From IMG/VR virus record IMGVR_UViG_3300028800_000083: a DNA stretch of 64,000 nucleotides; one strand, given 5' to 3'. The translations under genes were made by a program, and so were the position numbers. This document shows, piece after piece, positions 2,180-36,214 of this stretch (within the stretch, counting starts at the first letter, position 1; each line of letters starts with the position of its first letter). Source of the DNA: a virus. The notes under the pieces are model-generated. The model did no database searches, was not told the DNA's origin, and saw only the letters and a list, made by a program, of their open reading frames with translations.

Positions 2180-2887
2180 GTCGAGACCACGACGAGGTCT
2201 CGCATCGATTGCGCCGTTCTAGCTTTCTAGCTTGTTATGCAGGTACTTCTGTCGAGACCACAGCGCGGTTTCGCATCGATCGCGCCGGGCGCCGGGCGCC
2301 GAGCGCACCGGTCCCCACTCCGAGGTCGAGACCATCGCGAGGTCTCGCATCGAGCACGCCCGCTTCCGTGTCTCCTCTACGTCGAGACGTCGAGACCATC
2401 GCGAGGTCTCGCATCTCTCGCAGCGCTTGCGCTGATCTGTGCGTCCGTGCGTCCATCCCTCTACGTCGAGACCACAGCGAGGTCGCGCATTTATCGTTAC
2501 GTGCTTGTGCTTGAGCGAGAAGCGAGAACGGTCCGGGGTCCGGGGTCCCGTGTCCTGTGTCCCGTTATCCGACGCCGACGCCGACGCCCGACGCCTTGTG
2601 GACTTTGTCGAGTGTCGAGACCCGAGACCCCAGTGAGGTCTCGCAGCGGTGATCTTCGTGCGCACGTCGTCTTCGAGACCACCGCGAGGTCTCGCATTGA
2701 TCATTGATCGCGCCAGGCACCAGGTAGCGGCTCTTCGCTCTCCGCTCTCCGTCTCCGTCGACTCAGCGATGATCCAGTCGAGACCACAGCGAGGTCTCGC
2801 ATCGAGATCGCGTTGGCGAATCCACCGATTCACCTCAAGAACGTAAGCGTTGTCGAGACCACAGCAAGGTCTCGCATCGTTCGGCAC
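2180..2887 (-). CRISPR. decayed CRISPR remnant with B-type repeats (~10 degenerate units)
   Basis: Units such as gtcgagaccacgacgaggtctcgcatcgattgcgcc and gtcgagaccacagcgaggtctcgcatcgagatcgcg recur at irregular 60-90-nt spacing. They are clearly derived from the array B consensus and are heavily mutated. The remnant abuts the first A-type repeat at 2909. Confidence 0.6.
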
Positions 2888-2908: not shown

Positions 2909-5821
2909 GTCTCGGTTGTTAACCAACCGAGCGGGTACGATCATAGGGTGTCCCTTAGAGCCTTAGACAGTGCAGTAGCTTCCTGTCTCAGCCGTCAACC
3001 GGCTGAGCAAGTGCGACCAAGGGCCTCGGGCCTCGGGCTTGTGCCCCTCGGGCCTCGGGCCTCGGGGGTCGGGGAGAATGCACGGACTCCCACTCGTCTC
3101 GGGCGTCGACCGACCGAGCAAGTCTTGCGGTTTGCGGTGTGCCGGTGTGCCGGTGTGCCGGTGTGCCGTGTGCCGTTGCTCAAGTCCCGGTCGTCAACCG
3201 GCCGAGTGACCGAGTCTCATGGCACTGCGCTGTAATCCCCTTGCTGTCTCGGTCGTCAACCGACCAAGCAGGTACTCTCGCTACATGCACATGCGCGCAC
3301 TGGCACTCACTGACGTCAACCGTCCGTCTGAGCGTCTGAGCTGCAACAAGCTCAAGGCTGGTCTCGGACGTCAACCGTCCGAGCAGGCGCGATCACTCCG
3401 AAGCTCCGTAGGCATAGCTGTCTCGGACGTCGGACGTCAACCGTTCGAGCAGGTGTCGATCATCCGCACGAGTGTCGAGTGTCGAGTGTCGAGCGCAAAC
3501 TCGGGATTCTCTGTCTCGGACGTCAACCGTCCGAGCAGGTGCGATCACCTACCAGGGTGAGAGATGGAAACAATCTCCGTCTCGGGCGTCAACCGTCCGA
3601 GCAGGTGCGATCACTCTCATAGATCACGTGCTCCAGCCTCCAGCCTCCAGCCTCCAGCCTCCAGCCTCCAGACGTCGGATCAGGCTCGTCTCGGACGTCA
3701 ACCGTCCGAGCAGGTGCGATCACCTGCCCCCCTGCCCCCCGCAGAGGCCGCAGAGGCGCAAGAACTCTCTCGCCAGTCTCGGACGTCAACCGTCCGAGCA
3801 GGTGCGATCACAGGCAGGTTCTCGCCTGGCTCCCGGCTCCCGGCTCCCGGCTCCACCTAACCAAGGTGTCTCGGACGTTAACCGTCCGAGCAGGTGCGAT
3901 CACCCGCTCGCTGAGCGTGAGCGTGAGCGGCCGATCGTAGCGGGTGTCTCGGACGTCAACCGTCCGAGCAGGTGCGATCACACGCGAGCATCGGGTGGCG
4001 CTGGCCCTCTCTAAACAATGCGTCTCGGACGTCAATCGTCCGAGCAGGTGCGATCATCTTCTGGACGCACGACGACAGATTCGGGATTCGGGTTGGCCCA
4101 GTCTCGGACGTTAACCGTCCGAGCCGCATCCCATGCGGCAGCGGCCCGATCCCTTGTCTCGGACGTCAACCGTCCGAGCAGGTGCGATCACCTCGCACGG
4201 GCGCGCGAGCCGTGAGGCCGTGAGCCGTCGATCGAGCTCAAGTCTCGGACGTCAACCGTCCGAGCAGGTGCGATCACTTGTGCGCGCGCATGCCGCGGGC
4301 GGCGGGCGGCGCGTGGTCTCGAACGTCAACCGTCCGAGCAGGTGCGATCACACGACGACGAATCAGCAGGCAAGGATAACTGCTGGTCTCGGACGTCAAC
4401 CGTCCGAGCAGGTGCGATCACAGGGGACGGACATCTTCGTGTTCGATCTTGGCACGCCTCGACCTCGAGCCACCTATAGTCTCGGACGTCAACCGTCCGA
4501 GCAGGTGCGATCACAAGCCACCCGCGACGCCTACGCGATGGAGCGTCGAGTCTCGGACGTCAACCGTCCGAGCGTCCGAGCAGGTGCGATCACACGCGCT
4601 GTACATCGGCCCCGGCGAGAAGTTCCGGTCTCGGACGTCAACCGTCCGAGCAGGTGCGATCACACGCGACCCGTGACCCGTTGCGCGAACGCGCGAACGG
4701 AACGGCCGGCTCCTCGTCTCGGACGTCAACCGTCCGAGCAGGTGCGATCACGCTCGGCGGCCAGCTGATCAGCACGCGCGATCGCTTGTCTCGGACGTCA
4801 ACCGTCCGAGCAGGTGCGATCACAATTGGCGATCAGTTGCGCGCGGCTGCGCGCTCGTCTCGGACGTCAACCATCCGAGCAGGTGCGATCACCCGCAGTT
4901 CGGGCAGGGAGCGTCCTCAAAGATCTGTCTGTCTCGGACGTCAACCGTCCGAGCAGATGCGATCACCTTCGACCGGTAGCGCGAGCGCTCGGGTACTTGT
5001 GGTCTCGGACGTCAACCGTCCGAGCAGGTGCGATCACGCGTCTCGACGGGGTAGCGCACCGAAATGGTCCGGGTCTCGGACGTCAACCGTCCGAGCAGGT
5101 GCGATCACGAGGTCAGCCGGTGTCCCAAATGCGGCGCCTTCGGGTCTCGGACGTCAACCGTCCGAGCAGGTGCGATCACTTGTGACGCATGTGCTCGCGG
5201 CTGGCAGCACTCAGTCTCGGACGTCAACCGTCCGAGCAGGTGCGATCACAGGATCACGCGCGTCGCCTCGTTAATCAGTCCGTCGTCTCGGACGTCAACC
5301 GTCCGAGCAGGTGCGATCATGCGAGAGCCGTGCCCGTCTGAATCACGATCTCCCAGCGTCTCGGACGTCAACCGTCCGAGCAGGTGCGATCACCGGCCGG
5401 GCGAAGCTTACCCGTTCAACTATCGAGTGTGGTCTCGGACGTCAACCGTCCGAGCAGGTGCGATCACAGGTGCCGCCTTTTGCTGCGTGTACAGGCGTTG
5501 GCTGTCTCGGACGTCAACCGTCCGAGCAGGTGCGATCACTCACCCATCGGACTGGCCAGTCCCTGGAGATCGGGTCTCGGACGTCAACCGTCCGAGCAGG
5601 TGCGATCACACGTCGTGACCGATCTAGCGATGACTAATCGGTTCGTCTCGGACGTCAACCGTCCGAGCAGGTGCGATCACCCTCGGCGCTGCGCGTAGCT
5701 GGTCTGCCCGTCTAGTCTCGGACGTCAACCGTCCGAGCAGGTGCGATCACTCGCAGCAGGCGATCCTCAAGCTGGCGCGGCCGATGTCTCGGACGTCAAC
5801 CGTCCGAGCAGGTGCGATCAC
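2909..5821 (-). CRISPR. CRISPR array A, ~40 units, 36-nt repeat GTCTCGGACGTCAACCGTCCGAGCAGGTGCGATCAC (plus-strand reading)
   Basis: Regular ~71-72-nt period with unique 34-36-nt spacers between 3361 and 5821. Repeats are degenerate and spacers irregular in 2909-3350, so that is the old end and the effector-proximal right end is the young end. The repeat contains the inverted repeat CTCGGACG/CGTCCGAG. On the minus strand the hairpin sits at the 3' end of the repeat next to the spacer, which is the type V-like arrangement. Strand is inferred. Confidence 0.9.
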
Positions 5822-5970
5822 CGGAGTTTCTTATTCAGTTGTCAAAGAAGGCACTTGCATCCTTCGATGCAGGCACCGGTAGCTTTACTCCACGCTCGTG
5901 CGTGTCGCGAGGGAGGACCCCTCTGAATGCTGCTGTACGGCCTGAGGTTTCGGGGGCGCATGAACCTCTT
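5822..5970 (-). promoter_or_regulatory. candidate leader or intergenic region between effector A 3' end and array A
   Basis: 149-bp stretch with lower GC (cggagtttcttattcagttgtcaaagaagg...) directly flanking the best-conserved terminal repeat. Contains the hairpin TGCATCcttcGATGCA at 5856-5871. Confidence 0.35.
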
Positions 5971-7908
5971 CTACGCGGCACGCCGCACCTGCGGCACCGG
6001 ACCGCTCGACAAGCCGTGCCTGTGGAGGAGGTTGCGCGCGGCGTTCGCGTCCTGGTCCCAGGTCCGAATGCACGACGAGCAGGTGTGCTCGATCGAGGCT
6101 GCCGCGTCGAACGCCTCGACCGAGCCGCACCACGCGCACGCCTTGGTCGAGTCCGCGGCCTGCTCGGCCTCGACGCGGGCGCCGCGTTTGGGGGCGGCCT
6201 TGAGGATCTCGGCGCGAAGCTCGCCGGGAGCTGCAAGGCGGCTCATGCGGCGCTGCTCGCGCCCGTCGGACGGGTCGCCGTCCTCCGGCGCGGGCTGCTC
6301 CCAGCCGTCGACCTCGGTGAGCTTCATCGAGGTGTCGTGGTTCGACCCGCTCTCGATCAGGATCGTCGCGTAGCGGGCGGTGAGCTCGGCGGCGATCACG
6401 CGCCACACCTCACGGCGGTGGGCGATCAAGCGATCGCGCTGGTGCTCCTCCCAGTTCTGGAGGTGTCGATCTTGGCGCGCCCACGCCTGGAGCACGGCGA
6501 GGATCGGACCGTCGCCGTCGATGCGGTTGGCCGTCGAGCCGAAGTCCGAAGGGTTGCACTTCTTGCCCTCGGCGCGAGCGACGCGCCAGGCGTCCCAGTC
6601 GATCCCAGTCCAAGCGTCGACGAGGGAGGCGAGCTTGCGGGGGGCGCGCCACTGCGCCAGGCTGCCGACGCGCTCGGCCATCCACGCGGGGGTCTCCCGG
6701 TCGAGCAGCCAGGCCGCGAGGCGGTCGCGCGCGGTCTCGAACTCCTTGTCGCGGATCGACGCCAGGTCGTGGACCTTGGCCATTCCCGTCAGCAGATCGT
6801 CGGGCACACGGATCTCGCGCTCGTGCCCGTGCTCGTCGACGAGGTAACCAACGCGCAGACCGACCTGCACGCCCTGGGCGTCGAACAGCCGCCGCCAGCC
6901 CAGGTCGATCGCGCAGGTCCCCTCGCCGATCGCCACCGGGCAGGCACGAAAGCGCTCGCTCTCGAGCGTGAGCTGGAACCTCCACTCGTAGTGACGGCCG
7001 ACGCGCTTGCGCACGACGTACGCCCACTTGATCACCGCGTCCTTCGGGATGGGTCGGTGGAGGGTGAGGGGGAAGCGCGCGAAGATCGGCTTCCGGTCAG
7101 GGTGGCTGCCGACGCGCAGGTCGACGTACGTCCGTGCCGCGTGACGGCGCAGGTTGCGCGGGAGGCACGCGGCCTCCTCCCACGTGGCGCACGCTCCGAC
7201 CTCGGCGCGCGGGTGCTTGTCGGCGAGACCAGGGGTCCCCAGCCGGAGCCGGGAGTCCTGCTGCGACAGCAGCTCGCTGACGGTCATGCCGTAGATTCCC
7301 GGGGCGCCGTCGCGCGCGATGAGCTGCGTGCCGATCGATCCGGTCCCGTCGTAGCGCTCGAAGTGGAGCGGGCGCTTCGCCGTCTTGACGGCCTGCTTGA
7401 CCGAGTTCTCGACGCGGTCGTAGGTGCCGGTGCGCAGTCCTCGCTCGATGAAGGCGCGGCGGGCCTCCTTGCGGCGCAGCGCCGTGAGCGCGCGCGCGGC
7501 CTCGTAGCCCGGCTGGAGCTGCGCCGCGCGAGACGCCTTGGCCTCGCGCAGCTCCGCGCCGCACAGGGCGCGGAGGTCCTTGGCGCGGGCGAGCACCTCG
7601 CGCTCCGCCGTCAGGTCCGGGGCAGCGACGCCGGACTTCGCGGCCCGCAGGTCGTCGTAGGCGTCGTCGACGGCACCCGCCGCGTCCTCGTAGTCGCGGA
7701 GGGCCGCACCGACGATCGGATCCGCGAGCTGGACGCCGCGGAGGTCGTCCCAGAGCTTGTGCTCGATCTCGACGAGCGTGTTGCGGTACTGGTGCGCGAG
7801 GCGGAACTGCTCTTCGACGCGGTTCACCTCGGTGATCGGAGGCAGGCAGCGGTACGAGTAGATCCGGGTCGGGACGTCGGAAGTCTTCTTCCTGGGCTGT
7901 CGCGGCAT
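5971..7908 (-). CDS. TnpB-like RuvC nuclease, putative type V CRISPR effector (Cas12-family, subtype unresolved), copy A
   Basis: ~646 aa from ATG at 7908; the longer in-frame ORF reaches 7980. TnpB-like N-terminus (PTRIYSYRCLPP). RuvC-I is AIDLGW, with the Asp codon GAC at 6904-6906. RuvC-II is ILIESG. Zinc finger CAWCG..(14)..CSSC is followed by RuvC-III DQDANAARNLL. A 40-unit array lies 150 bp downstream on the same strand. Confidence 0.75.
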   Translation of the reverse strand: MPRQPRKKTSDVPTRIYSYRCLPPITEVNRVEEQFRLAHQYRNTLVEIEHKLWDDLRGVQLADPIVGAALRDYEDAAGAVDDAYDDLRAAKSGVAAPDLTAEREVLARAKDLRALCGAELREAKASRAAQLQPGYEAARALTALRRKEARRAFIERGLRTGTYDRVENSVKQAVKTAKRPLHFERYDGTGSIGTQLIARDGAPGIYGMTVSELLSQQDSRLRLGTPGLADKHPRAEVGACATWEEAACLPRNLRRHAARTYVDLRVGSHPDRKPIFARFPLTLHRPIPKDAVIKWAYVVRKRVGRHYEWRFQLTLESERFRACPVAIGEGTCAIDLGWRRLFDAQGVQVGLRVGYLVDEHGHEREIRVPDDLLTGMAKVHDLASIRDKEFETARDRLAAWLLDRETPAWMAERVGSLAQWRAPRKLASLVDAWTGIDWDAWRVARAEGKKCNPSDFGSTANRIDGDGPILAVLQAWARQDRHLQNWEEHQRDRLIAHRREVWRVIAAELTARYATILIESGSNHDTSMKLTEVDGWEQPAPEDGDPSDGREQRRMSRLAAPGELRAEILKAAPKRGARVEAEQAADSTKACAWCGSVEAFDAAASIEHTCSSCIRTWDQDANAARNLLHRHGLSSGPVPQVRRAA

Positions 7909-7920
7909 CCGTGAATGGCT

Positions 7921-7948
7921 AACAGGATGATAGACGTTTTGCAAGGCT
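7921..7948. promoter_or_regulatory. conserved motif copy 1 (GCTAACAGGATGATAGACGTTTTGCAAG), 13-40 bp upstream of effector A ATG
   Basis: A 28-nt identity with the copy at 18211-18238 and 21 nt shared with the copy at 22314-22334. On the minus strand it reads TTGCAA-N17-TAGCCA and ends 13 nt before ATG 7908. Confidence 0.45.
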
Positions 7949-8011
7949 TCGTGACGGCGGTCCCCCTGGGACAGAGTCACTACCCCGGAGCGTACACGGC
8001 GTCCGATTCAC

Positions 8012-11000
8012 GTCGAGACCACTGCGAGGTCTCGCATCGATCGCGTGATCGCCTGTTGGTCGAGGTTTCACATCGATCGTGCCGCCTTGCCGTGCCAGGT
8101 GAGCAAGCGCTTGCACACGTCGAGACCACAGCGAGGTCTCGCATCGATCGCACCAACCTGAAATCGTCGGCGCCTTCATCCGGACGATTCGTCGGTCGGT
8201 TGAGACCACAGCGAGGTCTCGCGTCTCGCATCGATTGTGCCGAGAGTCGGCGCGGAGTTCTACGTTGACTTCTTCGGGTCGAGACCACCGCGAGGTCTCG
8301 CATCGATCAGGCCCGGCAATTTCATTGGCCGGAACTCCCAGTACCGGCTGGTCGAGACCACCGCAAGGTCTCGCATCGATCCCAGCCCAAATGTGAATCC
8401 GTCGAGACCACCGCGAGGTCTTGCATCGATCATCGATTGGGCCTCCCGCCCGCTCGCCAGCTCGCCGGGTTAGCAGTGGTCTCGACGAGCGGATCTACCG
8501 CGAGGTCTCGCATTGATCGTACCCCTTTTCCCTCGCCGTTTTCGCGGTCGTTGAGACCACTGCGCGCTGCGAGGTCTCGCAGCGATCGGGCCGAGCGGCC
8601 GAGCGGCCGAACGGAGCTGCCCCCAGCTCACGCGCTCGTAGGCTGATCGACCGGCTCGTCGAGACCGCCGCGAGGTCTCGCATCGATCGTGGCACTTCTT
8701 CGGGACCATACCCGTCACCTTGAGGAGAACTCGTCGAACCTCGTCGAGACCACCGTGGTCTCGCATCGATCGTGCCAATCGATTCGCGCAACGTCGATCG
8801 TGTCTGATTCGACGAGCTCGGGGCGAAGCGGTCGAGACCACAGCGAGGTCTCGCATCGATCATGCCTGTGGTGACGAAAAGGGCTGACAACGGTGACCTG
8901 TGGGTCGAGACCACAGCGAGGTCTCGCATCGATCGTGCGTCGGTGACTTGCTTCGATCGTGTCTTTGTCGGGGGCTTGCGCGAAACTTGGACCATGGGCA
9001 GTCGAGACCACAGCAAGGTCTCGCATCGATCACACCTGCGAACGGCGAGCTTCACAGTCAAGACGGCGCGCATTGATCTTGGCAGGCTTCAAGTTTCAAG
9101 TCCCTCGTGCGCCTTATCGTCCGTATCGTCGCGTTCTGGTCGAGACCATCGCGAGGTCTCGCATCGATTGCACCAGGGCTGCTCTGTGCCCTGGGGGCAT
9201 GCTCGGTGCTCGGCTGCTCGTCGAGACCCCTGCAAGGTCTCGCACTGACCGGAACTGATTCGCAACCACCTGTCGAGACCACCGCAAGGTCTCGCATCGA
9301 TTGTGCCGTTTGTACGTGAGGTTGATGAGGGGACGTCGAGAGTCGAGACCACCGCTCCTCATGGCAGCGTCGGGGTGGACCAACGACCAACGGTCGAGAC
9401 CACCGTGAGGTCTCGCATTGATCGTGCCCCCTTCTTGGGCCAGCAGGCGTCCTCCGTCAAGTGGTCGAGACCACAGCACAGCGAGGTCTCGCATCGATCG
9501 CGCCTCGATATCGCGCGGGCGCGCGGTGGTGGCTCAATGCTCAATGTTGTCGAGACCGTAGATGACCTGCGGCATTGCGGCACATTGAGCGTGGTCGAGA
9601 CCACAGCGAGGTCTCGCATCGATTGTGTCACTCGGCGATCTCGTTGTCCGTACCCCGTCGCCGCAGTCGAGACCACAGCGAGGTCTCGCATCGATTGTGC
9701 CCGACCTCGTGATTCGTGATTCGACGTGAGGATGGAGATCCCGGTGTCGAGATCTCGCGTCGATTGTGCCGTGGACGCCAAGTGGAGCGAGAGCCTTGGT
9801 AAAGCTGTCGAGACCACCGCGAGGTCTCGCATCGATCGTGCCAAGTAGGCTGCACATGAGTCGATGGCCGTTCGGCGTGTCGAGACCACCGCGAGGTCTC
9901 GCATCGATCGAGCTTGCGCACAGGTTTTCGAGACCACCGCGAGGTCTCGCATCGATCGTGCCGTGAAGACGTAGTCCCCGCGCGGCGGACTCGCATTGTC
10001 GAGACCACCGCGAGGTCTCGCATCGATTGTGCCCGTCAGCCTAAGCACCCTGTCGCGCTGGGAGTCGAGACCACCGCGAGGTCTCGCATCGATTGTGCCG
10101 CCTAGGCGCAGGCGTCTCACCTACGCAATCGCTAAGTAGAGACCACCGAGGTCTCGCATCGATCGTGCCGGGGGGCCGGGGATCGTCGACCGTCGGCCCA
10201 ACTGCGGACAGTCTAGGCGAGACCACAGCGAGGTCTCGCATCGATCGTGCCCAGCGCTTGCTCGCTTCCTCTTCGCGCGCCGATGACGACGTGTTGCGGC
10301 GGTAACAGGTAACAGGTGCGCACCGGGTGTTTGGGTCGAGACCACAGCGAGGTCTCACATCGATTGTGCCCCGGCTAAGCTGAAGAACCGTGACCCCAAA
10401 CTACGGCGAGTCGAGACCACAGCGAGGTCTCGCATTGATTGTGCCCCGTGACCAGGCTCGAGTACGTCAGCTTCAGCACCGTAGGGTCGAGACCACAGCA
10501 AGGTCTCGCATCGATTGTGCCAGCCTCAGGCTCCGCGTCCTGCTATTCCCGTTCGTCCAAGTCGAGACCAGCGCGGTCTCGCATCGATTGTGCCACGTGC
10601 CACGCGAGCCGCATCCCAGCCGTCAGGGTGTCGAGACCACCGCGAGGTCTCGCATCGATTGATTGTGACGCCGTGCAGCGCGCCAAGAATCGGGGCGATG
10701 CCAGTGTCGAGACCACCGAGGTCTCGCATCGATTGTGCCGTACCGCCGCGAGCGCGCCTTGACCGACGTAGAGCGTGTCGAGACCACCGCGAGGTCTCGC
10801 GTCTCGCATCGATTGTGCCGCGACACTCGCCGAAGTCGACCTCCGATCCCGACCCTGTCGAGACCACCGCGAGGTCTCGCATCGATTGTGCCTCCGCACC
10901 GTGCGCTGCGCGCTTCGGTGTCGTCTGGTCGAGACCACCGCGAGGTCTCGCATCGATTGTGCCTGCCGGCCTGCCGGCCTGCCGGCATCGCGCCGACGTC

Positions 11001-14000
11001 GTGGACGTGGGCACACCCGTCGTCGAGACCCCCGCGAGCACAGCACCGATCGTCAACTGGTCGAGACCACCGCGAGGTCTCGCATTGATTGTGACCGCTC
11101 GGGTCACCCACCATCTGCCGTGACACGATCTTGTCGAGACCACCGCGAGGTCTCGCATCGATTGTGCCGACGGACGCGGACGTCGTCGAGAAATGTCGGC
11201 CCTTGTCGAGACCACCGCGAGGTCTCGCATCGATCATCGATCGTGCCTTGCCACGACTACGCATGTGGCTCGGCGGGTCTGCGCGTGGGGCCACACCTCG
11301 GACTGGTCGAGACCACCGCGAGGTCTCGCATCGATCATGCCGTTACCTGCTAAGACGGTAAGCAGGGAGGTCGTCGAGACCACTGCGAGGTCTCGCAGCG
11401 ATCGTGCCCGTGAGGTCTCGCCCCTGCGACGTTGGGATCGGTCGTTGGTCGAGACTACCGCAAGGTCTCGCATCGATCGTGCCGCAACAGAATTCGTGAC
11501 GGCGCCGATACTCGGAGCGGTCGAGACCACCGCGAGGTCTCGCAGCGATCGTGCCCAGGCATCTATCAAGGCTACGCTTGCACGGGCGCTCGTCGAGACC
11601 ACCGCAAGGTCTCGCATCGATCGTGCCCTTTGCTGTCATGTGTCCTCTTCTTCCTTCTTCCTTGCAGGTTGTCGAGACCATCGCGAGGTCTCGCATCGAT
11701 CGTGCCGCGCGGTCGCGCCGTCGCGCGGGACGCGATGCTGTAGTCGAGACCACCGCGAGGTCTCGCATCGATCGTGCCGCTCGCGTAGCGAGGTGCCAAC
11801 GGCGTTCTTACGAGGTCGAGACCACCGCGAGGTCTCGCATCGATCGTGCCGCCCAGGAGCGTCAGAGTGTCGACCATTTCGCCGTGTCGAGACCACCGCG
11901 AGGTCTCGCATCGATCGTGCCGTTCAACCCGCACTCGGGCAAGCACAAGACGCTCGGTCGAGACCACCGCCGTGACGGATGAGCCTGTTGCTGTTGGGCA
12001 GGCCTACGTCGTATTGGTCGAGACCACCGCGAGGTCTCGCATCGATCGTGCCCTGGCTGTCCTTAAGACGAGGCCCCTATGGACCGAGAGTCGAGACCAC
12101 CGCGAGGTCTCGACCACATGGCTCCGGCTCTGGTCGAGACCACCGCGAGGTCTCGCATCGATCGTGCCGTCTCCACGTTCACGCCGCCCTCCCACGCGAG
12201 CCAGTCGAGACCACCGCGCGGTCTCGCATCGATCGTGCCGTGCCACGTGCCACGTGCCACAGCAGCAGCGAGCCCAGACTAGACAGTTCGTCGAGACCAC
12301 CGGGAGGTCTCGCATCGATCGTGCCAGTCGGTCGCTTGACCATGGCTAACCTCAAAAATGTGTCGAGACCACCGCGAGGTCTCGCATCGGTCGTGCCCTC
12401 GATACGGACCCGAGAAACGGAAACTGGTTTTTCAGTCGAGACCACCGCGAGGTCTCTCATCGATCGTGCCGGCCAAGTCTTCCTCGGTCGTCGAGCGCCC
12501 GCCGGCCTTGTCGAGACCGCCGCGAGGTCTCGCATCGATCGTCGATCGTGCCCTCTTGTAGACCCAGCCGTGTAGCCGATAGAGCTGCTTGTCGAGACCA
12601 CCGCGAGGTCTCGCATCGATCGTGCCGTCTCGTCGCTCGCCATGCTCGCCGGCACACCGAACCCGTCGAGACCACCGCGAGGTCTCGCATCGATCGTGCT
12701 CCCAGGCGAGCGAGTCGAGGTAGTCGCGGACCGGGTGGGTCGAGACCACCGCGAGGTCTCGCATCGATCGTGCCGCACGCGGGCGCGCGCTCGGTGTCGT
12801 TGACCGTTGACCGAGGAGGTCGAGACCACCGCGAGGTCTCGCATCGATCGTGCCGCCGTGCAATTGCGGACGGCCGATCTACTTCCGGTGGTCGAGACCA
12901 CCGCGAGGTCTCGCAATCGATCGTGCCGGTCGAGAGTGCGTGACCGAAAACACGGAACCGGAGGCTGGTCGAGACCACCACGAGGTCTCGCATCGATCGT
13001 GCCGTACAGGTTCGCCGTGGTGCCCTTGGGCGCACCGTAGTCGAGACTACCACGTCATAGCGGCCGTCGAGACCACCGCGAGGTCTCGCATTGATCGTGC
13101 CGCGACCTCGTCGAGGTGCCGCTCGTCGTTCATTCTTGTCGAGACCACCGCGAGGTCTCGCATCGATCGTGCCTTGCCTAGCCGCCGAGGCGTTCGGCGA
13201 CAAGACAGCGGGTCGAGACCACCGCGAGGTCTCGCATCGATCGTGCCGCGGCCGGGCAGGAGGGCAGGAAGTTGAACGTCGAGTCAACTTTGTCGAGACC
13301 ACCGCGAGGTCTCGCATCGATCGTGCCGAACGCCGAACACTGCTGAGCGGCAGGCGATACTCCTAGGGCAGTCGAGACCACCGCGAGGTCTCGCATCGTC
13401 GCATCGCTCGTGCCTGCAACGCGCGGTTCGCTCAGCGGGGGTTGGAGGTGGTCGAGACCACTGCGAGGTCTCGCATCGATCGTGCCCGCGACTCGTTCGT
13501 CGTTCGCCGCGTCGGCCGTAGTGCGCCGGGTCGAGACCACTGCGAGGTCTCGCATCGATCGTGCCACGCGCGCCAAGTCGGTCCAACTAAGAGCCCCAAT
13601 CGTTGTCGAGACCACCGCGAGGTCTCGCATCGATCGTGCCCAGCCGACCGAATTCGCCACTGCATTTACGACGCTGTGTCGAGACCACCGAGAGGTCTCG
13701 CATCGATCGTGCCGAACGCGGGCGCGTCGGGCTCGAGTTCGTTCCATTGGTCGAGACCACCGCGAGGTCTCGCATCGATCGTGCCGCGCGCATCGTGCGG
13801 CAAGCGTGCGGCAAGCGTGCGGCATGAGCTTGTCGAGACCGCCGCGAGGTCTCGCATCGATCGTGCCTTATCGTCGGACTTGCCGATCCCGAGCTGCCCT
13901 TTTGTCGAGATCACTAGGTCTCACATCGATCGTGCCGGTTATGGCGCCCTCGTTGTCGCAGTGCCCGTTCTCGTCGAGACCACCGCGAGGTCTCGCATCG

Positions 14001-15906
14001 ATCGTGCCGATCGTCGACGTGGAACGTGGAGGCGCGTTGGCGCAACCGGAAGTCGAGACCACCGCGAGGTCTCGCATCGATTGTGCCCGTCGCGCGCTCG
14101 CCCGATATCGATGAGCCCAACGTGTCGAGACCACCGCGAGGTCTCGCATCGATCGTGCCGGGAAGTAGGCTGCACATGAGTCGATGGCCGTTCTGCGTGT
14201 CGAGACCACCGCGAGGTCTCGCATCGATCGTGCCGTCTAACGTGGCTGCTCACCGGAGCCGTGGTTCGCTGTCGAGACCACAGCGAGGTCTCGCATCGAT
14301 CGTGCCTCGGGAATTCCAAGACCTCCGTCAGCGGTTCCTCTCGTCGAGACCACAGCGAGGTCTCGCATCGATCGTGCCGGTGTCAAACGTGCGATGGAAC
14401 AGGCGGAGGTTTAGGTCGAGACCACCGCGAGGTCTCGCATCGATCGTGCCTGAACACGTTCTTGCCGTTGGCGCCTTCGCCATAATGGTCGAGACCACCG
14501 CGAGGTCTCGCATCGATCGTGCCGTTGTGCAGACACTTTGCCGTAACGACGCCGGTGTCGTCGAGACCACCGCGAGGTCTCGCATCGATCGTGCCGAACG
14601 ACTCGAAGGTCGCGACATCGACGCATCTGTCGTCGAGACCACCGCGAGGTCTCGCATCGATCGTGCCCGCGTGCGAAGCAGAGATGCCCTCGAGCAGTCG
14701 CTCGTCGAGACCACCGCGAGGTCTCGCATCGATCGTGCCGCTGCGCGACCGCGACGAAGCTCGTCGTCCTCATAGATGCTCACGTCACGTCGAGACCACC
14801 GCGAGGTCTCGCATCGATCGTGCCACAGGAGTAGACACGGATCCACGGAGGAACCAATGGGTCGAGACCACAGCGAGGTCTCGCATCGACGACGTGATCG
14901 CCCGTTGGTCGAGACCACCGCGAGGTCTCGCATCGATCGTGCCAGGTCGGGCTGGACCTTGGCAGTCGAGACCGCTGCGAGGTCTCGCATCGATCGTGCC
15001 GAAAGCGGCCGGGTCGGGCGCGGGCGCGATCTGCGCGTCGAGACCCCCGTGAGGTCTCGCGTCTCGCATCGATCGTGCTGTTCAGGATCTCAGCCGCAGC
15101 GAGCGAGGTGTCTATGTCGAGATGTCGAGACCACCGCGAGGTCTCGCATCGATCGTGCCCAGCAACGAACCCGGGCTAGAGAGTTCGAACCCATGTCGAG
15201 AGTCGAGACCACCGCGAGGTCTCGCATCGATCGTGCCGATCGCCGCCGCGATTGAAGCAGCGCTCGTCTCTGGCGTCGAGACCACCGCGAGGTCTCGCAT
15301 CGATCGTGCCTGATCTGAGCGGCCTTGTCGATCGGCTCAAGGTCGAGACCACCGCGAGGTCTCGCATCGATCGTGCCGGCTCGGACGCATGACCAAGAGC
15401 GTTACGTTCGATGTGTCGAGACCACCGCGAGGTGCCATGACCTCACCATAGCGCGCCCGCGATCGTGCCGACGAACCCGAATTCCTCCGCCGAGGACAAT
15501 CCGTAGGTGTCGAGACCACCGCGAGGTCTCGCATCGATCGTGCCGGGGCTTGGGCTCGATCCGCGCTACACGATCTCGTCGTCGAGACCACCGCGAGGTC
15601 TCGCATCGATTGTGCCCGCCTGACGGTACGCCGCCGGGGCGGAGGGCTGCGTGTCGAGACCACCGCGAGGTCTCGCATCGATTGTGCCCTCGACCGTCTC
15701 GTGCCAGCCCTTCGGGATTCGCACGTCGAGACCACCGCGAGGTCTCGCATCGATTGTGCCCACTCTCGTGGTCTCGTGGCAATACCCACTCGACGTGCGT
15801 CGAGACCACCGCGAGGTCTCGCATCGATTGTGCCGCGCCGCTTGTCCGGTGGCGACCAGGACTTCAGGATGTCGAGACCACCGCGAGGTCTCGCATCGAT
15901 TGTGCC
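8012..15906 (-). CRISPR. CRISPR array B, ~108 units, 36-nt repeat GTCGAGACCACCGCGAGGTCTCGCATCGATCGTGCC (plus-strand reading)
   Basis: 72-74-nt period with unique 36-39-nt spacers. Repeats are degenerate in 8012-9100 (old end) and near-perfect toward 15906, which is the end next to effector B. Palindrome GAGACC/GGTCTC. Sub-variants ...GATCGTGCC and ...GATTGTGCC occur in blocks. A few truncated repeats are present, for example at 12090. Strand is inferred as for array A. Confidence 0.9.
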
Positions 15907-15927
15907 TTCGATTGTCAGAGAACGAAC

Positions 15928-16199
15928 CATGCTTATCCGGTTGTCACCCCTCGCGGGCGCGACGGATCTCCTTGATCTTTCGCTCGGCGCGCTTCGCAGA
16001 GGCTCGCCATTCAGCGAGAGCTTCCGTTGGGGTGAATTCTTGAATCGTTCCGCCGACGTTGATCACGGACGGTCGCTTGCCCAGAGAGGCGGAAAGAAGC
16101 TCGCCCATTTCGGAGCGGATGATTTTAAGTTCACGTTCGAGTCGCGATGCCATTTGATGTCTCCCTGATCACGTTTGGGGTGTTAACCGGATAAGCATG
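15928..16199. mobile_element. MITE-like insertion (272 bp) with 23-bp imperfect terminal inverted repeats and 8-bp target-site duplication GAACGAAC (15920-15927 and 16200-16207)
   Basis: Left end CATGCTTATCCGGTTGTCACCCC versus right end GGGGTGTTAACCGGATAAGCATG; 21 of 23 positions match as reverse complement. Identical direct repeats GAACGAAC flank both ends. The interior has lower GC. It sits between the last array B repeat (ends 15906) and the effector B stop (16212). Confidence 0.65.
15944..16153 (-). CDS. small ORF inside the MITE (69 aa, coiled-coil-like, lower GC)
   Basis: MASRLERELKIIRSEMGELLSASLGKRPSVINVGG... The only ORF of 60 aa or longer within the TIR-bounded element. Codon usage is atypical for the surrounding DNA. 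It may not be expressed. Confidence 0.3.
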   Translation of the reverse strand: MASRLERELKIIRSEMGELLSASLGKRPSVINVGGTIQEFTPTEALAEWRASAKRAERKIKEIRRAREG

Positions 16200-16211
16200 G
16201 AACGAACGATC

Positions 16212-18167
16212 CTACGGCGTTGCGGGGCTCGGCGCGAGCGGCTGCTGGTCCTTCCGCCGGTTCCGCCGCGCCGGGGCCTTCTTCTTCGTCGAAGGTGCCG
16301 GAACCTTGGGGTCGAGCGGCCACCCGCTCTCGCCGCGCGCGACGGCGCTCGCGGCGGCGAGCAGGTTTCGGCTCATCGTGATGTCCTGGTCCTCGGCGTG
16401 GCCGCAGTTCTCGCAGCGGATCACCCGCTGCACCCGGTCTTCCCGCGAGACGTCGCGGTGGTGACCGCAGGCCGCGCAGTCGAGCGTCCCACCGGCAGCG
16501 TCGACCTCCAGGTCGACGCTGCCGTACTTCTTCGCGAAGTAGCCGACGCGGGCGCGGGCGCGCCCGGGCCCCAGGATGTTCACGCGGCGCGCCGTCTTCT
16601 TGCGCAGCTTCTGCTCGTCCTCGTCGTGCTGGTCGTCCTTCTCGACGAGGCCGGTCACGTCGAAGTCGTCGCGGGCGACGACCCCGTAGCGCTTGGCCAG
16701 CTGGACCGCGACCGCGGTGACGCGGCCCTCGACCTGGCGCTGCATGCGCTCGAGGCTCGGCACCTCGCGGTGGAGCAGGTGGACGTCCTGCTTGCTCCAC
16801 GCCTCCAGCGCCGCGAAGGCCGGCTGGTCGCCGTGGATGCGCTGGTCTCGCCACTGCCGGTGCAGGCGGACGTACTTGCTGGGGGCCCGCCAGTTGTGCA
16901 TGTGGCGGCTCTCTTCGCGGAGCCACGACGTCGCCGGCAGCGACCGGGCGTAGGCGAGGATCATGTCGCGGAGCACGTCCTGGTTCTGGTCGCGGATCGA
17001 ATGGATCGAGTCGGCCCAGGGTTTCACACCGAGCACGTCCTCGGGGATCACGAGTTGCCCCCAGAGCGGGCTCGCGGGGTCGTTGGGGTCGAGTGGCGCG
17101 GTGGCGCTCCACGTGAGCAGGCGGATGCCCGCCTTCTTGCCCTCCTCGTCGAAGAGCTGACGCCAGCCGATGTGGACGGCGACCGCGTCGTGCGGGTGCG
17201 GGTGCGGGGTGGTCACGGCCACGGAGCCCTCGACCTCAAGCGTGAGGTACCAGCGGTAGCGGAGCCCGGTGCGCTCGCGCCGGACCACGGCCCACTTGAC
17301 GACGTCGTGCCCGAGCTGGAGGCGGTTCTTCGTGCGCGGGGACTGGTGCAGGAGCAGGTGCATCTGGGCCCAAATCGGGCGGATGGTGCCCGGCACAGTC
17401 CCGACGCGGATCGCGAGCGCGTGGAAGCGCTTGCCCTTCGTGGCGGCCTCTCCCGCGCGCGGCCCGATCTTGATGACGTCTCCCGGGTTCCCGGCGACGT
17501 CGATCGCGCGCCCCTCGGCGTCGACCGCGGCGGGTCGGAAGTGGTCGACCGGGGCACCCAGCGAGTACGCGACCGATCCGATGCGCAGCCAAGACCCTTC
17601 GCCGCCGATGAGATCGTCGGCGTAGACGGACTTCTTGGCGGGAAGTGTCTTGCCGGTCCGCGCGTCGATGCGCGCGTTCTGCCGCTGGAACTGGACGGCG
17701 ATGCGGCCCACGTCCGGGGGGAAGTCCGTCCCCACGAACGTGGTCCGGCCGTTTTCGTCGATGAGCCCTGCCTTGTCGATCGTGCGCCGCGCGAAGTCGG
17801 CCGCGTCGTCCGCCTTGCCGAGCGTCCCCCACATGGCTCCCGCCTCGATCGTCGCGTCGCGCACGGCCTTGAGCGCGCGCTTCTTCCCCGCGAACACGCG
17901 CTCGCGGAGGGCCTTGAACTCGTCAGAGGCGTGCCACGCATCGCGGGCAGCTTTCCCAGCCTCCGACTTCCACCACGCGCCACGCGCTTCGACGGGTACG
18001 TCCCTGGCCGGGTAGTCGATGAGCGCGCGCCGGAGGAAGCGCTCGCGGTTCTCGATGAGCGCGATCTGTCGGCGGTAGCGCGCGCCGAGGCGCACCTGCT
18101 CGCGCAAGCAATGGTCGTCGGCGGCCGTCGCCGGGAGACAGAGGAACTTGTACACGCGCATCGTCAT
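16212..18167 (-). CDS. TnpB-like RuvC-fold protein, putative type V CRISPR effector paralog B with divergent catalytic residues
   Basis: 651 aa; about 30-35% identical to copy A over its full length (RVYKFLCLPA N-terminus, WRAPSK, AWSKQD, KRYG blocks). RuvC-I reads AVHIGW, with His codon CAC at 17172-17174 where copy A has Asp. RuvC-II reads VVARDD. Zinc finger CAACG..CENCG is followed by EDQDITMSRNLL. A 108-unit array lies downstream on the same strand. Confidence 0.75.
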   Translation of the reverse strand: MTMRVYKFLCLPATAADDHCLREQVRLGARYRRQIALIENRERFLRRALIDYPARDVPVEARGAWWKSEAGKAARDAWHASDEFKALRERVFAGKKRALKAVRDATIEAGAMWGTLGKADDAADFARRTIDKAGLIDENGRTTFVGTDFPPDVGRIAVQFQRQNARIDARTGKTLPAKKSVYADDLIGGEGSWLRIGSVAYSLGAPVDHFRPAAVDAEGRAIDVAGNPGDVIKIGPRAGEAATKGKRFHALAIRVGTVPGTIRPIWAQMHLLLHQSPRTKNRLQLGHDVVKWAVVRRERTGLRYRWYLTLEVEGSVAVTTPHPHPHDAVAVHIGWRQLFDEEGKKAGIRLLTWSATAPLDPNDPASPLWGQLVIPEDVLGVKPWADSIHSIRDQNQDVLRDMILAYARSLPATSWLREESRHMHNWRAPSKYVRLHRQWRDQRIHGDQPAFAALEAWSKQDVHLLHREVPSLERMQRQVEGRVTAVAVQLAKRYGVVARDDFDVTGLVEKDDQHDEDEQKLRKKTARRVNILGPGRARARVGYFAKKYGSVDLEVDAAGGTLDCAACGHHRDVSREDRVQRVIRCENCGHAEDQDITMSRNLLAAASAVARGESGWPLDPKVPAPSTKKKAPARRNRRKDQQPLAPSPATP

Positions 18168-31107: not shown

Positions 31108-32222
31108 CTCCGGGACCTCTTCTTACGCGGTCGATCGTCGCCGAGCGCCACGAACTCGCGCAGGAGATCCTCCTGCTTGGGGGACAGCTTCCGCGGCACT
31201 TCGACGATGAAGCGGACCACGTGGTCACCACGCTCTCCTCCGCCGACGCTCGGGATGCCCTGGCCGCGACGATGCAACTCGTCGCCCGGCTGCGTGCCGG
31301 GACGCAACTCCAGGATCGCGGTCCCCGTGCAGTCGTCGTCGAGCGTGTCGACCTCGACCTCGCCGCCGAGCTCTGCTTGGGCGAAGCTGATCGTCACCTC
31401 GCTGGTGACGTCGCTGCCGTCGCGCGTGAAGCGCTCGTCTTCTTGGACGTGGAGGACGACGTGGAGGTCGCCGGAGGCGCCGCCGGGCACGCTCTCGCCC
31501 CTGCCGGAGACGCGGAGCGTTTGGCCGTCGTCGACGCCGGCTGGGACCGTCAAGGACAGCGTGGACTTCTCGGTCCGCGTGCCTCGCCCGCGGCAGTCCG
31601 GGCACGGGTCCTTGATCGTCTTCCCCGCGCCCTGGCAGTGCGGACACGTCGTCTGCACCATGAAGAAGCCTTGTGCGTGAGTGACCTGACCCTTGCCCTG
31701 GCACGCACGGCAAGGCTCGGGTTGCGCTGCGCCGCGCACGCCGGTCGCGCGACACGCCGCGCACCCCGCGGCGCGCGTGACCTCGACGTCCTTGCGCACG
31801 CCCCACACGGCCTCGCGGAAGGTGAGCCTCAGGTCGAGGCGCAGGTCGGCACCGCGCGTCGGTCGGCGCGAGTTGCGACCAAAGAAGTCGCCGAACAAGT
31901 CGCCGAACGCCGAGAAGATGTCGTCGACGTTGTTGAAGCCGCCGCTGAACCCCGCCCCTGGTCCGTCGCCGGGGGCAGCGCCGCCGCGGCGGATCCCGTC
32001 GAAGCCGTGGCGGTCGTACGCAGCACGCTTGTCGGTGTCGGACAGGACCTGGTAGGCGTTCGCGGCCTCCTTGAACTTCTCCTCGGCGGTCTTGTCTCCC
32101 GGGCACTTGTCGGGGTGGTACAGCTGCGCGAGGCGGCGGTAGGCTTTCTTGAGGTCGGCTGGCGTCGCCGCGCGCGGGACGCCGAGCACCTCGTAGAGGT
32201 CGCGAGGCGCAGACGTGCTCAC
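31104..32222 (-). CDS. dnaJ: molecular chaperone DnaJ
   Basis: J domain [32 protein letters not shown]; four CxxCxGxG zinc-finger repeats; C-terminal substrate-binding region. GTG start at 32222 (the longer ORF to 32294 has a spurious Arg-rich N-terminus). Confidence 0.9.
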
Positions 32223-32536
32223 GCCGTGCCTCCGGGAGCCTGCGGCTGGCGGAGGACCGCTCCCGCCTCGAGCTTGGGGATCGCCAACTCGCACGAGCGC
32301 AGCTCGATGAGGAGGTTCTGCGGCACGACCTGCGCCTTGCTCAGGACCTCGTCGACGAGGCGGCGGGGTTCCACGACGGCGGTCCGGAGCTTCGCCAGCT
32401 CAGTGTCTCGCTCGGCGCTTCGCGGTGGTGTCGCGGCGGTGATGAGCATGCAGGTTTTGGCCCACGCGACCTCGTCGATCAGGCGATCGATCAGCTCGCG
32501 CGACGGGCGGTTTGGGGGGTCGGAGCAGGCGGGCAT
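32219..32536 (-). CDS. hypothetical protein
   Basis: 105 aa; 4-nt overlap with the dnaJ start. Confidence 0.4.
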
Positions 32537-34071: not shown

Positions 34072-34079
34072 CGGGGGGC

Positions 34080-36212: not shown

Positions 36213-36214
36213 TG

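What the first reader, a model, noticed from the sequence alone, without database searches (positions are those of the whole stretch)
15920..16207. MITE-like transposon insertion exactly between effector B and its array
A 272-bp element at 15928-16199 is bounded by 23-bp imperfect inverted repeats: CATGCTTATCCGGTTGTCACCCC on the left and GGGGTGTTAACCGGATAAGCATG on the right. It is flanked by a perfect 8-bp direct duplication, GAACGAAC, at 15920-15927 and 16200-16207. Without the element only about 25 bp would separate the last repeat (15906) from the effector B stop (16212). That implies array B was originally co-transcribed with or immediately abutted the effector gene, and that the insertion now separates them. 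The element carries one small lower-GC ORF (69 aa) and could supply or disrupt promoter activity for the array.
Basis: seen in the sequence. Interest (0 to 1): 0.6.

Follow-up and report, generated by a model that had tools for sequence, protein, structure and literature searches.

The report
Transposon gene cassette inside CRISPR leader
A 272-bp transposon-derived cassette of the IS1595 family, which has no transposase but carries one conserved 69-codon gene, has inserted into the 25-bp gap between a Cas12-type gene and its CRISPR array; this is a real but ordinary kind of event, and the cassette family turns out to be common in uncultivated viral contigs.

Summary
Window 15928-16199 is a 272-bp element with 23-bp terminal inverted repeats (2 mismatches), flanked by a perfect 8-bp duplication GAACGAAC.

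It is a genuine transposition product:
- The same cassette sits end to end at unrelated sites elsewhere, with its own duplications: GTTGTCTC in L012 and GATCGTTT in L021.
- Its terminal 15 nt (CATGCTTATCCGGTT) bound at least 80 distinct elements in IMG/VR viral contigs, most with perfect 8-bp duplications.
- The 1.6-2.5 kb members encode an IS1595-family transposase. The closest named element is ISAcr1, which has similar ends and an 8-bp duplication.

Three relatives of the Cas12-like effector (70-83% identity) lack the element. They have 25-27 bp between the stop codon and the first repeat. Removing the element and one duplication copy from the window restores exactly 25 bp, and this aligns with two of them without gaps.

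It is not a classic non-coding MITE. The 69-aa ORF is under strong purifying selection (dN/dS 0.05-0.19), so "mobile insertion cassette" is the better name.

Its effect on crRNA expression is untested. The cassette is co-oriented with cas12 and the array, has no predicted promoter or strong terminator, and leaves a conserved leader motif intact.

It is a new member of a known kind, of moderate interest.

The parts
15928..16199 (-). Non-autonomous IS1595-family element (mobile insertion cassette), 272 bp. Strand is given as that of its cargo gene.
   Evidence: It is bounded by inverted repeats and an 8-bp duplication. Full-length copies at other sites are L012 3955-4226, L017 3954-4227 and L021 3010-3280. 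Its ends match those of transposase-bearing elements.
15920..15927 (.). Target-site duplication, left copy (GAACGAAC).
   Evidence: It fits 8 of 8 positions of the family target consensus RWWYRWWY, derived from 74 unique perfect duplications.
16200..16207 (.). Target-site duplication, right copy (GAACGAAC).
15928..15950 (+). Terminal inverted repeat on the stop-codon side of the cargo (CATGCTTATCCGGTTGTCACCCC). The cargo TGA stop (15944-15946) lies inside it.
16177..16199 (-). Terminal inverted repeat on the start-codon side of the cargo (CATGCTTATCCGGTTAACACCCC on the minus strand).
   Evidence: L012 and L021 show the same AA/GT asymmetry between the two ends, so the 2 mismatches are a feature of this cassette and not decay.
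15944..16153 (-). Cargo gene of 69 aa, predicted as helix, beta-hairpin, helix. Function unknown.
   Evidence: Nine homologs at 80-96% identity. Pairwise dN/dS is 0.05-0.19. The AlphaFold2 model has mean pLDDT 94.5. No match in PHROGs or PADLOC, and only a below-threshold Pfam hit.
16160..16166 (-). Shine-Dalgarno-like AGGGAGA, 6 nt upstream of the cargo ATG.
   Evidence: Read from the sequence. An equivalent AGGAG is present in L012, L017, L021 and L013.
15907..15919 (-). Retained 13 bp of the original leader next to the first repeat. It contains TCTGACAAT (15911-15919), the counterpart of the conserved motif CTTTGAYAAY.
   Evidence: The motif is present in L142, L143, L146 and in the leader of array A.
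16208..16211 (-). 4 bp of original leader between the effector B stop codon and the duplication.
15871..15906 (-). Leader-proximal repeat of array B. Array B runs 8012-15906, about 93 repeats, with older degenerate copies at 2180-2887.
16212..18167 (-). Effector B, a 651-aa Cas12u1/Cas12f-like protein. Its coding sequence is untouched, because the insertion lies 4 bp after the stop codon.
   Evidence: Pfam Cas12f1-like_TNB 6.7e-8. PADLOC Cas12u1 1.5e-38 and Cas12f 1.8e-34. The C-terminus matches its homologs.

Best explanation
The element is a non-autonomous derivative of an IS1595-family insertion sequence. It has two transposase-binding ends and no transposase, and it carries one small passenger gene, which makes it a mobile insertion cassette. 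An IS1595-type DDE transposase supplied in trans recognised the CATGCTTATCCGGTT ends. That transposase is not encoded in this window and may have come from a phage or another replicon. It made an 8-bp staggered cut at GAACGAAC and inserted the cassette into the 25-bp leader, 4 bp after the cas12-like stop codon and 13 bp before the first CRISPR repeat. Gap repair produced the 8-bp duplication.

Shown here: the insertion, its family, its mobility, the empty ancestral state in relatives, and that the cargo is a real gene.

Inferred here:
- The cargo has a ribosome-binding site but no predicted promoter, and it is co-oriented with cas12 and with the array. It is therefore probably expressed by read-through from cas12.
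- Array transcription probably continues through the cassette. Alternatively it starts at the conserved TCTGACAAT leader motif, which the insertion left intact 2 bp away.
- In a read-through RNA the two ends would pair into a stem of about 22 bp enclosing the cargo. That stem could be cleaved by a double-strand-specific RNase and so uncouple the effector mRNA from the pre-crRNA.
For: Anatomy:
- 23-bp inverted repeats and a perfect 8-bp duplication.

Mobility:
- The same cassette lies in four unrelated contexts, each with its own flanking 8-mer.

Family:
- At least 120 IMG/VR stretches carry the end sequence.
- 112 paired-end elements were found, 79 of them with perfect 8-bp duplications.
- The 1.6-2.5 kb members encode a roughly 349-aa protein with DDE_Tnp_IS1595 (6.9e-34) and Zn_ribbon_IS1595 (3.1e-11) domains.
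- That protein is 63.6% identical to the annotated ISAcr1 transposase.
- ISAcr1 ends in CTTGCCTATCCGGTTGAC with an 8-bp duplication, GAATCAGC.
- A published IS1595-family member makes 8-bp direct repeats and a circular intermediate (PMC12561309).

Target:
- GAACGAAC matches the family consensus RWWYRWWY.

Empty sites:
- Three effector homolog loci have 25-27 bp between stop codon and first repeat and no element.
- The reconstructed site aligns gap-free with two of them, L142 and L146.

Not an assembly artefact:
- The 10 contigs fetched from different samples are 100% identical across the element.

No transposase in the window:
- tblastn gives nothing better than E = 1.

Cargo is real:
- dN/dS is 0.05-0.19.

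Foreign composition:
- GC is 56.6% against 66.9% for the window.

Expression-related predictions:
- No promoter is predicted inside the element. The only terminator-like site on the minus strand is a 5-pair stem inside the ORF.
- The inverted repeats pair in the minimum-free-energy fold of the read-through RNA.
Against: - No autonomous copy was found in the 64-kb window, and the rest of the genome could not be examined. The source of the transposase is therefore unknown.
- No empty allele of this exact locus was found in the metagenome collection. That collection also missed known occupied contigs, so this negative result is weak.
- The L017 duplication is imperfect (GAATGTT versus GAATGTC).
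- The functional consequences (read-through, RNA processing, cargo expression) rest on consensus scans and folding only. All sampled contigs share the same leader-proximal spacers, so nothing shows that the array was active after the insertion.
Confidence: 0.9

Rival explanations
1. The inverted repeat and the sequence between it are a native, structured leader of array B (for example a regulatory RNA or a leader-encoded peptide), and the GAACGAAC repeat is coincidental.
For: The element sits exactly where a leader is expected. The RNA folds better than shuffles, with z = -2.96.
Against: Three relatives at 70-83% effector identity have only 25-27 bp there and no inverted repeat. The same 272 bp occurs at unrelated non-CRISPR sites with other flanking 8-mers. 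There is no Rfam match. The GC content is 10 points below the surroundings.
Confidence: 0.01
2. The cassette moves by site-specific recombination, like an integron cassette or a lox-like site. In this view the composite end, 8 bp, end (for example CCGGATAAGCATG-GATCGTTT-CATGCTTATCCGG in L021) is a recombinase core site with an 8-bp overlap region.
For: L021 holds four cassettes in tandem. All have the same orientation, each holds one gene, and each is separated from the next by exactly the same 8 bp. This looks superficially like an integron array or like lox/FRT architecture, which has inverted arms and an 8-bp spacer.
Against: The flanking 8-mers differ between solitary insertions (GAACGAAC, GTTGTCTC, GAATGTY, plus 74 different ones in viral contigs). 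The outer flanks show no arm-like sequence. Both points fit target duplication and not overlap-region homology. The long members encode a DDE transposase and not a recombinase. The closest named IS has the same ends and an 8-bp duplication. Tandem copies 8 bp apart are explained by insertion into the duplication that flanks a resident copy, or by resolution of a circle or dimer junction. An IS1595-family element has been reported to form a circular intermediate.
Confidence: 0.04
3. The insertion is not neutral. The cassette was selected at, or targeted to, the CRISPR leader because it silences the array or delivers an anti-CRISPR-like or regulatory small protein expressed from the cas12 transcript.
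For: - The cargo is conserved and co-oriented with cas12.
- The family is abundant in viral contigs, and other cargos include typical phage counter-defence functions such as orphan DNA methyltransferases and a NADAR domain.
- A related 320-bp member lies about 1 kb from the cas12 gene of relative L146.
- The insertion is present in every sampled contig.
- No spacer gain is seen after the insertion.
Against: - About 50 consensus target octamers exist in this window alone, so a leader hit can be chance.
- None of the other copies of this cargo is next to a CRISPR locus.
- The cargo has no similarity to any defence or anti-defence model, and fold matches are non-specific.
- The conserved leader motif and the effector ORF are intact.
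- No spacers match the fetched viral loci.
Confidence: 0.08

Closest known systems
IS1595 family insertion sequences, closest annotated member ISAcr1 of Acidiphilium (RefSeq annotation; family defined by Siguier, Gagnevin and Chandler 2009, cited in PMC12561309)
   Same: The terminal sequence is closely related: CATGCTTATCCGGTTGAC here against CTTGCCTATCCGGTTGAC in ISAcr1. Both make an 8-bp target duplication. The autonomous relatives encode a transposase with the Zn-ribbon and DDE_Tnp_IS1595 domains, 63.6% identical to the ISAcr1 transposase.
   Different: The window element has no transposase and is 272 bp, against about 1.08 kb for ISAcr1. It carries a passenger gene instead. Its autonomous relatives were found here only in uncultivated viral contigs, and they carry an extra passenger gene upstream of the transposase. 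GenBank phage records gave only two remote transposase matches (27-33% identity) and no DNA match to the element.
Mobile insertion cassettes (MICs), first described as MIC231 of Bacillus cereus and mobilised in trans by the IS231A transposase (PMC3913671 and references therein)
   Same: It is bracketed by IS-type inverted repeats, has no transposase, carries a passenger gene and is flanked by a target duplication. This is the definition quoted.
   Different: It belongs to a different IS family (IS1595, not IS4/IS231). It is much smaller, and the single 69-aa gene fills nearly the whole element. Mobilisation in trans has not been demonstrated.
Bacterial MITEs (miniature inverted-repeat transposable elements)
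   Same: Small size, terminal inverted repeats, a target duplication, non-autonomous, and derived from an IS family.
   Different: MITEs are by definition non-coding. This element encodes a protein under purifying selection.
IS and MITE insertions in CRISPR-Cas loci (Sheng et al. 2023, PMC10359306)
   Same: A transposable element has landed inside a CRISPR-Cas locus. That paper surveys natural IS and MITE insertions into cas genes and mentions IS insertion into CRISPR loci.
   Different: Here the hit is in the 25-bp leader between the effector and the array and not in a cas ORF. The effector and the array remain intact, so inactivation is not evident.
MPME1/MPME2 ultra-small mobile elements of mycobacteriophages (PMC3029335)
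   Same: Elements of a few hundred base pairs with inverted repeats and one small ORF, moving among phage genomes.
   Different: MPMEs are 439 bp and add an unexplained 6 bp at one end only. They do not make an 8-bp duplication, and there is no sequence relationship. No search for MPME sequences was run here.

Membership tests
IS1595 family (as a non-autonomous derivative) | Terminal inverted repeats shared with autonomous members that encode the family transposase. | tested here: met
   The terminal 15 nt at both ends of the window element are the 15-mer that bounds the transposase-bearing elements (0-2 mismatches per end, e.g. L057, L081, L077, L084). 13 of 15 are identical to ISAcr1.
IS1595 family (as a non-autonomous derivative) | Transposase with an N-terminal zinc ribbon and a DDE_Tnp_IS1595 catalytic domain. 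| tested here: met
   Met in the autonomous relatives: PF12762 at 6.9e-34 and PF12760 at 3.1e-11. The annotation of the closest plasmid hits is 'IS1595-like element ISAcr1 family transposase'. The window element itself encodes none, as expected for a non-autonomous derivative.
IS1595 family (as a non-autonomous derivative) | 8-bp target-site duplication. | tested here: met
   The window has a perfect GAACGAAC duplication. 79 family elements have perfect 8-bp duplications. ISAcr1 has GAATCAGC. Published ISApl4 makes 8-bp direct repeats.
IS1595 family (as a non-autonomous derivative) | Mobilisation by the family transposase in trans. | not testable with these tools
   This needs a transposition assay. 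It is inferred from the shared ends and from multiple independent insertions.
Mobile insertion cassette (MIC) | Bracketed by IS-type inverted repeats, with no transposase gene and with a target duplication. | tested here: met
   The definition is as quoted in PMC3913671.
Mobile insertion cassette (MIC) | Carries a passenger gene that is a real gene. | tested here: met
   The 69-aa ORF is kept intact in six further copies, with a seventh (L017) altered at its C-terminus. dN/dS is 0.05-0.19. The structure model is confident.
MITE | Small, non-autonomous, with terminal inverted repeats and a target duplication. | tested here: met
MITE | No coding capacity. | tested here: not met
   The ORF is conserved and under selection, and it fills 210 of the 272 bp.
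MITE | Multiple copies within the host genome. | not testable with these tools
   There is only one copy in the 64-kb window, and the rest of the genome is not available. Copies in other genomes and contigs do exist.
Integron gene cassette | An attC site recombined by an integron integrase, with no target duplication. | tested here: not met
   Variable 8-bp duplications flank the solitary copies, and a DDE transposase sits in the long members. No integrase was seen in the fetched neighbourhoods.

The most novel reading that the evidence does not exclude
The window element is one visible member of a previously undescribed cassette-shuffling system. In this system, IS1595-type ends package single promoterless genes and move them between genomes. 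The packaged genes include DNA methyltransferases, a NADAR-domain protein, radical-SAM-like enzymes and many small unknown proteins. The family was found mainly in predicted viral contigs and sometimes piles up in tandem arrays spaced by exactly 8 bp. This is functionally analogous to integron cassettes but driven by a transposase. On this reading, the landing in the CRISPR leader is an adaptive hit. It places a phage-derived 69-aa protein under cas12 transcription and inserts a stem of about 22 bp between the effector mRNA and the pre-crRNA, modulating or blunting this Cas12 system.
Probability: 0.1. Interest if true: 0.75.

Novelty: new member of a known kind. Interest (0 to 1): 0.42.

Why it matters
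For this locus, the result shows that the type V effector and its array were originally separated by only 25 bp that contain a conserved motif. A foreign cassette now sits between them. Anyone reconstructing or expressing this system should remove 15928-16207 (the element plus one duplication copy) to recover the ancestral arrangement. The locus is also a natural experiment on how much leader this Cas12 subtype needs.

More broadly, the ends CATGCTTATCCGGTT mark a large and apparently active IS1595-type family in uncultivated viral contigs. Most of its members carry a single passenger gene and no transposase. That could be a significant and so far unannotated route for exchange of accessory genes among phages. 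The insertion itself belongs to a class of event that is already documented.

Tried and rejected
- Empty allele of this exact locus. An exact 24-mer spanning the reconstructed site gave no hit in metagenome contigs. The collection is incomplete, because a second scan with an internal 32-mer recovered only one of the known occupied JGI contigs. The negative result therefore carries little weight. Relatives supplied the empty-site evidence instead.
- Genome-contig scan with the 23-nt end. It gave one hit, in an Actinomycetes MAG (L011). The locus is cut 164 bp after the end, so the element there could not be characterised.
- Whether the window is a phage genome. Some ORFs hit PHROG families (mostly of unknown function, plus a metallophosphoesterase and an RNA ligase), and there are DnaJ, helicase and Band-7 genes. 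The effector has no close relative in IMG/VR and only one at 29% identity. Left undecided.
- Spacers against the 1.1 Mb of fetched loci and against the window. Only 16-20-nt partial matches were found, so there is no link between the arrays and the cassette-bearing contigs.
- Second copy or transposase in the window. None found.
- Known RNA family in 15700-16400. None found.
- GenBank phage records. No DNA match to the element, and only two remote matches to the transposase.
- Literature. No paper describing this element family or IS1595-type cassettes in phages was found in the searches made.

Full report
**1. The observation**

The sequence is as described.
- CATGCTTATCCGGTTGTCACCCC lies at 15928-15950.
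- Its imperfect reverse complement GGGGTGTTAACCGGATAAGCATG lies at 16177-16199 (21 of 23 positions pair).
- GAACGAAC lies at 15920-15927 and again at 16200-16207.
- The repeat finder reports the pair as I7.
- The 23-mer with up to 3 mismatches occurs nowhere else in the window and in none of 100 shuffles.
- The 69-aa ORF runs 15944..16153 on the minus strand. An AGGGAGA ribosome-binding-like site lies 6 nt before the ATG, and the stop codon lies inside the left inverted repeat.
- The element is 56.6% GC, against 66.9% for the window and 71% for the neighbouring effector genes.

**2. The surroundings**

Mapping both repeat types gives the following layout.

| Feature | Coordinates | Notes |
|---|---|---|
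| Degenerate B-type repeats | 2180-2887 | 4-6 mismatches |
| Array A | 2909-5821 | Separate repeat type |
| Effector A | 5971..7980, minus strand | 669 aa |
| Array B | 8012-15906 | About 93 repeats; degenerate at the 8012 end, near-perfect at the 15906 end |
| The element | 15928-16199 | |
| Effector B | 16212..18167, minus strand | 651 aa |

- Both effectors are Cas12u1/Cas12f-like. Pfam gives Cas12f1-like_TNB. PADLOC gives Cas12u1 at 1.5e-38 for B and 1e-88 for A.
- In both loci the well-preserved repeats are next to the effector stop codon.
- On the minus strand the repeat hairpin sits at the 3' end of the repeat.
- The arrays are therefore most likely read in the same direction as the effector genes, and the leader is the short stretch after each stop codon. 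This is inferred from repeat decay and repeat structure.
- The element sits in that leader, 4 bp after the stop codon and 13 bp before the first repeat. Its ORF has the same orientation as cas12 and the array.

**3. It is a mobile element**

- The exact 69-aa protein is recorded on 22 contigs from several samples. Every place returned is this same locus, and the 10 contigs fetched are 100% identical across the element. An assembly artefact is therefore excluded.
- Nine homologs at 80-96% identity exist. Their contigs are different genomic contexts.
- BLAST of the 272 bp shows end-to-end copies in L012 (88.6%), L017 (87.6%) and L021 (93.8%).
- Each copy has its own flanking 8-mer: GTTGTCTC/GTTGTCTC in L012, GAATGTT/GAATGTC in L017, and GATCGTTT in L021.
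- Decayed or end-less versions of the gene also exist. L013 and L019 keep one end only, and L018 keeps none.

**4. The family**

- Pairing neighbouring inward-facing ends in all fetched loci gave 112 elements of 184-2563 bp. Of these, 79 have a perfect 8-bp flanking duplication, and 74 of those duplications are unique. The pairing is a simple nearest-neighbour rule, so some of the pairs with unmatched flanks may be mis-paired ends.
- The duplications give a palindromic target consensus, RWWYRWWY, with T and A two bases outside it. GAACGAAC fits all eight positions.
- About 50 such octamers occur in the window, close to the number expected from base composition. The leader is a permitted target and not a unique one.
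- Members of 1.57-2.5 kb carry an ORF of about 349 aa with DDE_Tnp_IS1595 (6.9e-34) and Zn_ribbon_IS1595 (3.1e-11) domains. 34 of the fetched loci hold it.
- That ORF is 63.6% identical to the RefSeq-annotated 'IS1595-like element ISAcr1 family transposase' of Acidiphilium plasmids.
- ISAcr1 itself ends in CTTGCCTATCCGGTTGAC and is flanked by the 8-bp duplication GAATCAGC.
- A published IS1595-family member likewise makes 8-bp direct repeats and forms a circular intermediate (PMC12561309).
- The window encodes no such transposase. The element is non-autonomous.

**5. It is a cassette and not a non-coding MITE**

- Across seven copies of the cargo gene, pairwise dN/dS is 0.05-0.19, with dS up to 1.45. 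The reading frame is intact in six of the seven. The L017 copy diverges and ends early at its C-terminus.
- AlphaFold2 gives a confident helix, beta-hairpin, helix model (pLDDT 94.5).
- No function could be assigned. The Pfam hit is sub-threshold, PHROGs and PADLOC are empty, and fold matches are non-specific.
- The same architecture recurs through the family. Nearly every 213-1191-bp member holds one ORF (57-343 aa) that starts roughly 30-95 nt from one end and stops shortly before the other.
- Sampled cargos include a D12 N6-adenine DNA methyltransferase, a NADAR domain, and weaker radical-SAM and DHHA1 matches.
- By the definition quoted in PMC3913671, these are mobile insertion cassettes.

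**6. The empty site**

- Effector B has few relatives.
- The loci of P0011 (83% identity), P0012 (74%) and P0014 (70%) were fetched.
- In all of them the stop codon is followed by 25-27 bp and then the first repeat, with no inverted repeat.
- Deleting 15928-16207 from the window leaves TAG-GATCGTTCGTTCTCTGACAATCGAA-repeat, which is 25 bp. This aligns without gaps with L142 and L146.
- A motif CTTTGAYAAY lies 5-7 bp before the first repeat in the relatives. It also occurs in the longer (149-bp) leader of array A.
- In array B the motif reads TCTGACAAT at 15911-15919. It survives intact, 2 bp from the element end once the flanking duplication is counted.

**7. Consequences (inferred)**

- The consensus scan finds no sigma-70-like promoter in the element. 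The only terminator-like site on the minus strand is a weak 5-pair stem inside the ORF.
- A 356-nt read-through RNA folds so that the two inverted repeats form a long stem around the cargo (minimum free energy -133.9 kcal/mol, z = -2.96).
- The most economical reading is that cas12 transcription runs through the cassette, expressing the cargo from its own ribosome-binding site, and on into the array. Alternatively the array has its own start at the conserved motif, which was spared.
- Nothing shows loss of function. Equally, nothing shows activity after the insertion: all sampled contigs have identical leader-proximal spacers.
- No Rfam family matches the region.

**8. Rivals**

- A native structured leader is excluded by sections 3 and 6.
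- A site-specific (integron-like or lox-like) mechanism was considered because L021 holds four cassettes in tandem, each separated by the same 8 bp, GATCGTTT. L123 shows one more such junction, and all four junctions detected (three in L021, one in L123) have exactly 8 bp between the ends.
- Against that mechanism: the flanking 8-mers of solitary copies vary, the flanks have no arm-like sequence, and the long members carry a DDE transposase. All of this favours transposition. Tandem copies would then arise by insertion into the duplication next to a resident copy, or from circle or dimer junctions.
- An adaptive or anti-CRISPR role for the insertion cannot be excluded, but it has no positive evidence beyond co-orientation and the viral association of the family.

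**9. Comparison and novelty**

- IS and MITE insertions in CRISPR-Cas loci are documented (PMC10359306). IS1595 elements and mobile insertion cassettes are established categories. The finding is therefore a new member of a known kind.
- Several aspects appear undescribed in the literature searches made and in GenBank phage records:
  - the abundance of this particular family in uncultivated viral contigs;
  - the dominance of single-gene cassettes in it;
  - the tandem arrangement with 8-bp spacing.
- These points deserve a systematic census, but they go beyond the finding under review.

Noticed in passing
window 2180-2887, 2909-5821, 5971-7980, 8012-15906: Degenerate B-type repeats lie on both sides of the whole A module (array A plus effector A). 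The A locus therefore appears to be nested inside the old, distal part of array B. Only 21 bp separate the last B-type repeat (2887) from the first A-type repeat (2909), and 31 bp separate the effector A start (7980) from the next B-type repeat (8012).
   Followed up: partly
L021 2063-3280 (ENA ERZ25039482 contig_24775); also L123 3017-3026: Four IS1595-type cassettes lie head to tail, each holding one small gene (57, 117, 78 and 69 aa). Each is separated from the next by the same 8 bp, GATCGTTT. A partial fifth end follows the last cassette. All four end-to-end junctions detected in the fetched loci (three in L021, one in L123) have exactly 8 bp between the ends.
   Followed up: partly
IMG/VR loci L022-L141: The family with CATGCTTATCCGGTT ends is large, with at least 120 viral stretches. 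About three quarters of the TSD-flanked elements carry only a passenger gene, including a D12 DNA methyltransferase, a C5-methyltransferase-like protein, NADAR, radical-SAM-like and DHHA1-like proteins, and many unknowns. The autonomous copies carry a passenger gene upstream of the transposase.
   Followed up: partly
L146 1684-2003 (JGI Ga0214473_10000008, a 332-kb contig): The contig that carries the 70%-identical relative of effector B has its own 320-bp member of the same cassette family, with a different 91-aa cargo. It lies about 1 kb upstream of the cas12-like gene.
   Followed up: no
L019 385-6704 against window 31644-38970: The contig holding cargo homolog P0007 is syntenic with the window at 65-80% amino-acid identity, including the DnaJ gene. 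There the cargo gene sits at a different site and keeps only a decayed downstream end. A related genome therefore acquired the cassette independently and earlier.
   Followed up: partly
window 15911-15919 and 5836-5846; L142, L143, L146 leaders: A conserved motif CTTTGAYAAY lies just upstream of the first repeat in both type V loci of the window and in all relatives examined. Its spacing to the repeat is 5-7 bp in B-type loci and 23 bp in array A. It contains a TTGACA-like hexamer, but no convincing partner hexamer was found, so its role (promoter element or leader recognition) is open.
   Followed up: partly
window 15581-15906: The five repeats nearest the leader all carry the same C-to-T variant (GATTGTGCC). 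This fits copying of a mutated first repeat during recent spacer additions. The same variant also occurs in older blocks (about 9272-11168 and 14052), which suggests past duplications or recombination within the array. Many spacers have irregular lengths of 7-137 bp.
   Followed up: no
window 18300-64000: No cas1, cas2 or cas4 was seen among the ORFs examined near the two effectors. The rest of the window mixes DnaJ, a ResIII/DEAD helicase, radical SAM, Band-7, RNA-ligase-like and metallophosphoesterase genes with many ORFs that match only PHROG families of unknown function. It is therefore unclear whether this is a chromosome, a plasmid or a large phage.
   Followed up: partly
L011 7814-7836 (Actinomycetes MAG JAKOVA010000281.1): This was the only hit for the element end in the species-representative genome collection, which gives a tentative host phylum. 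The stored locus stops 164 bp inside the element, so its content is unknown.
   Followed up: no
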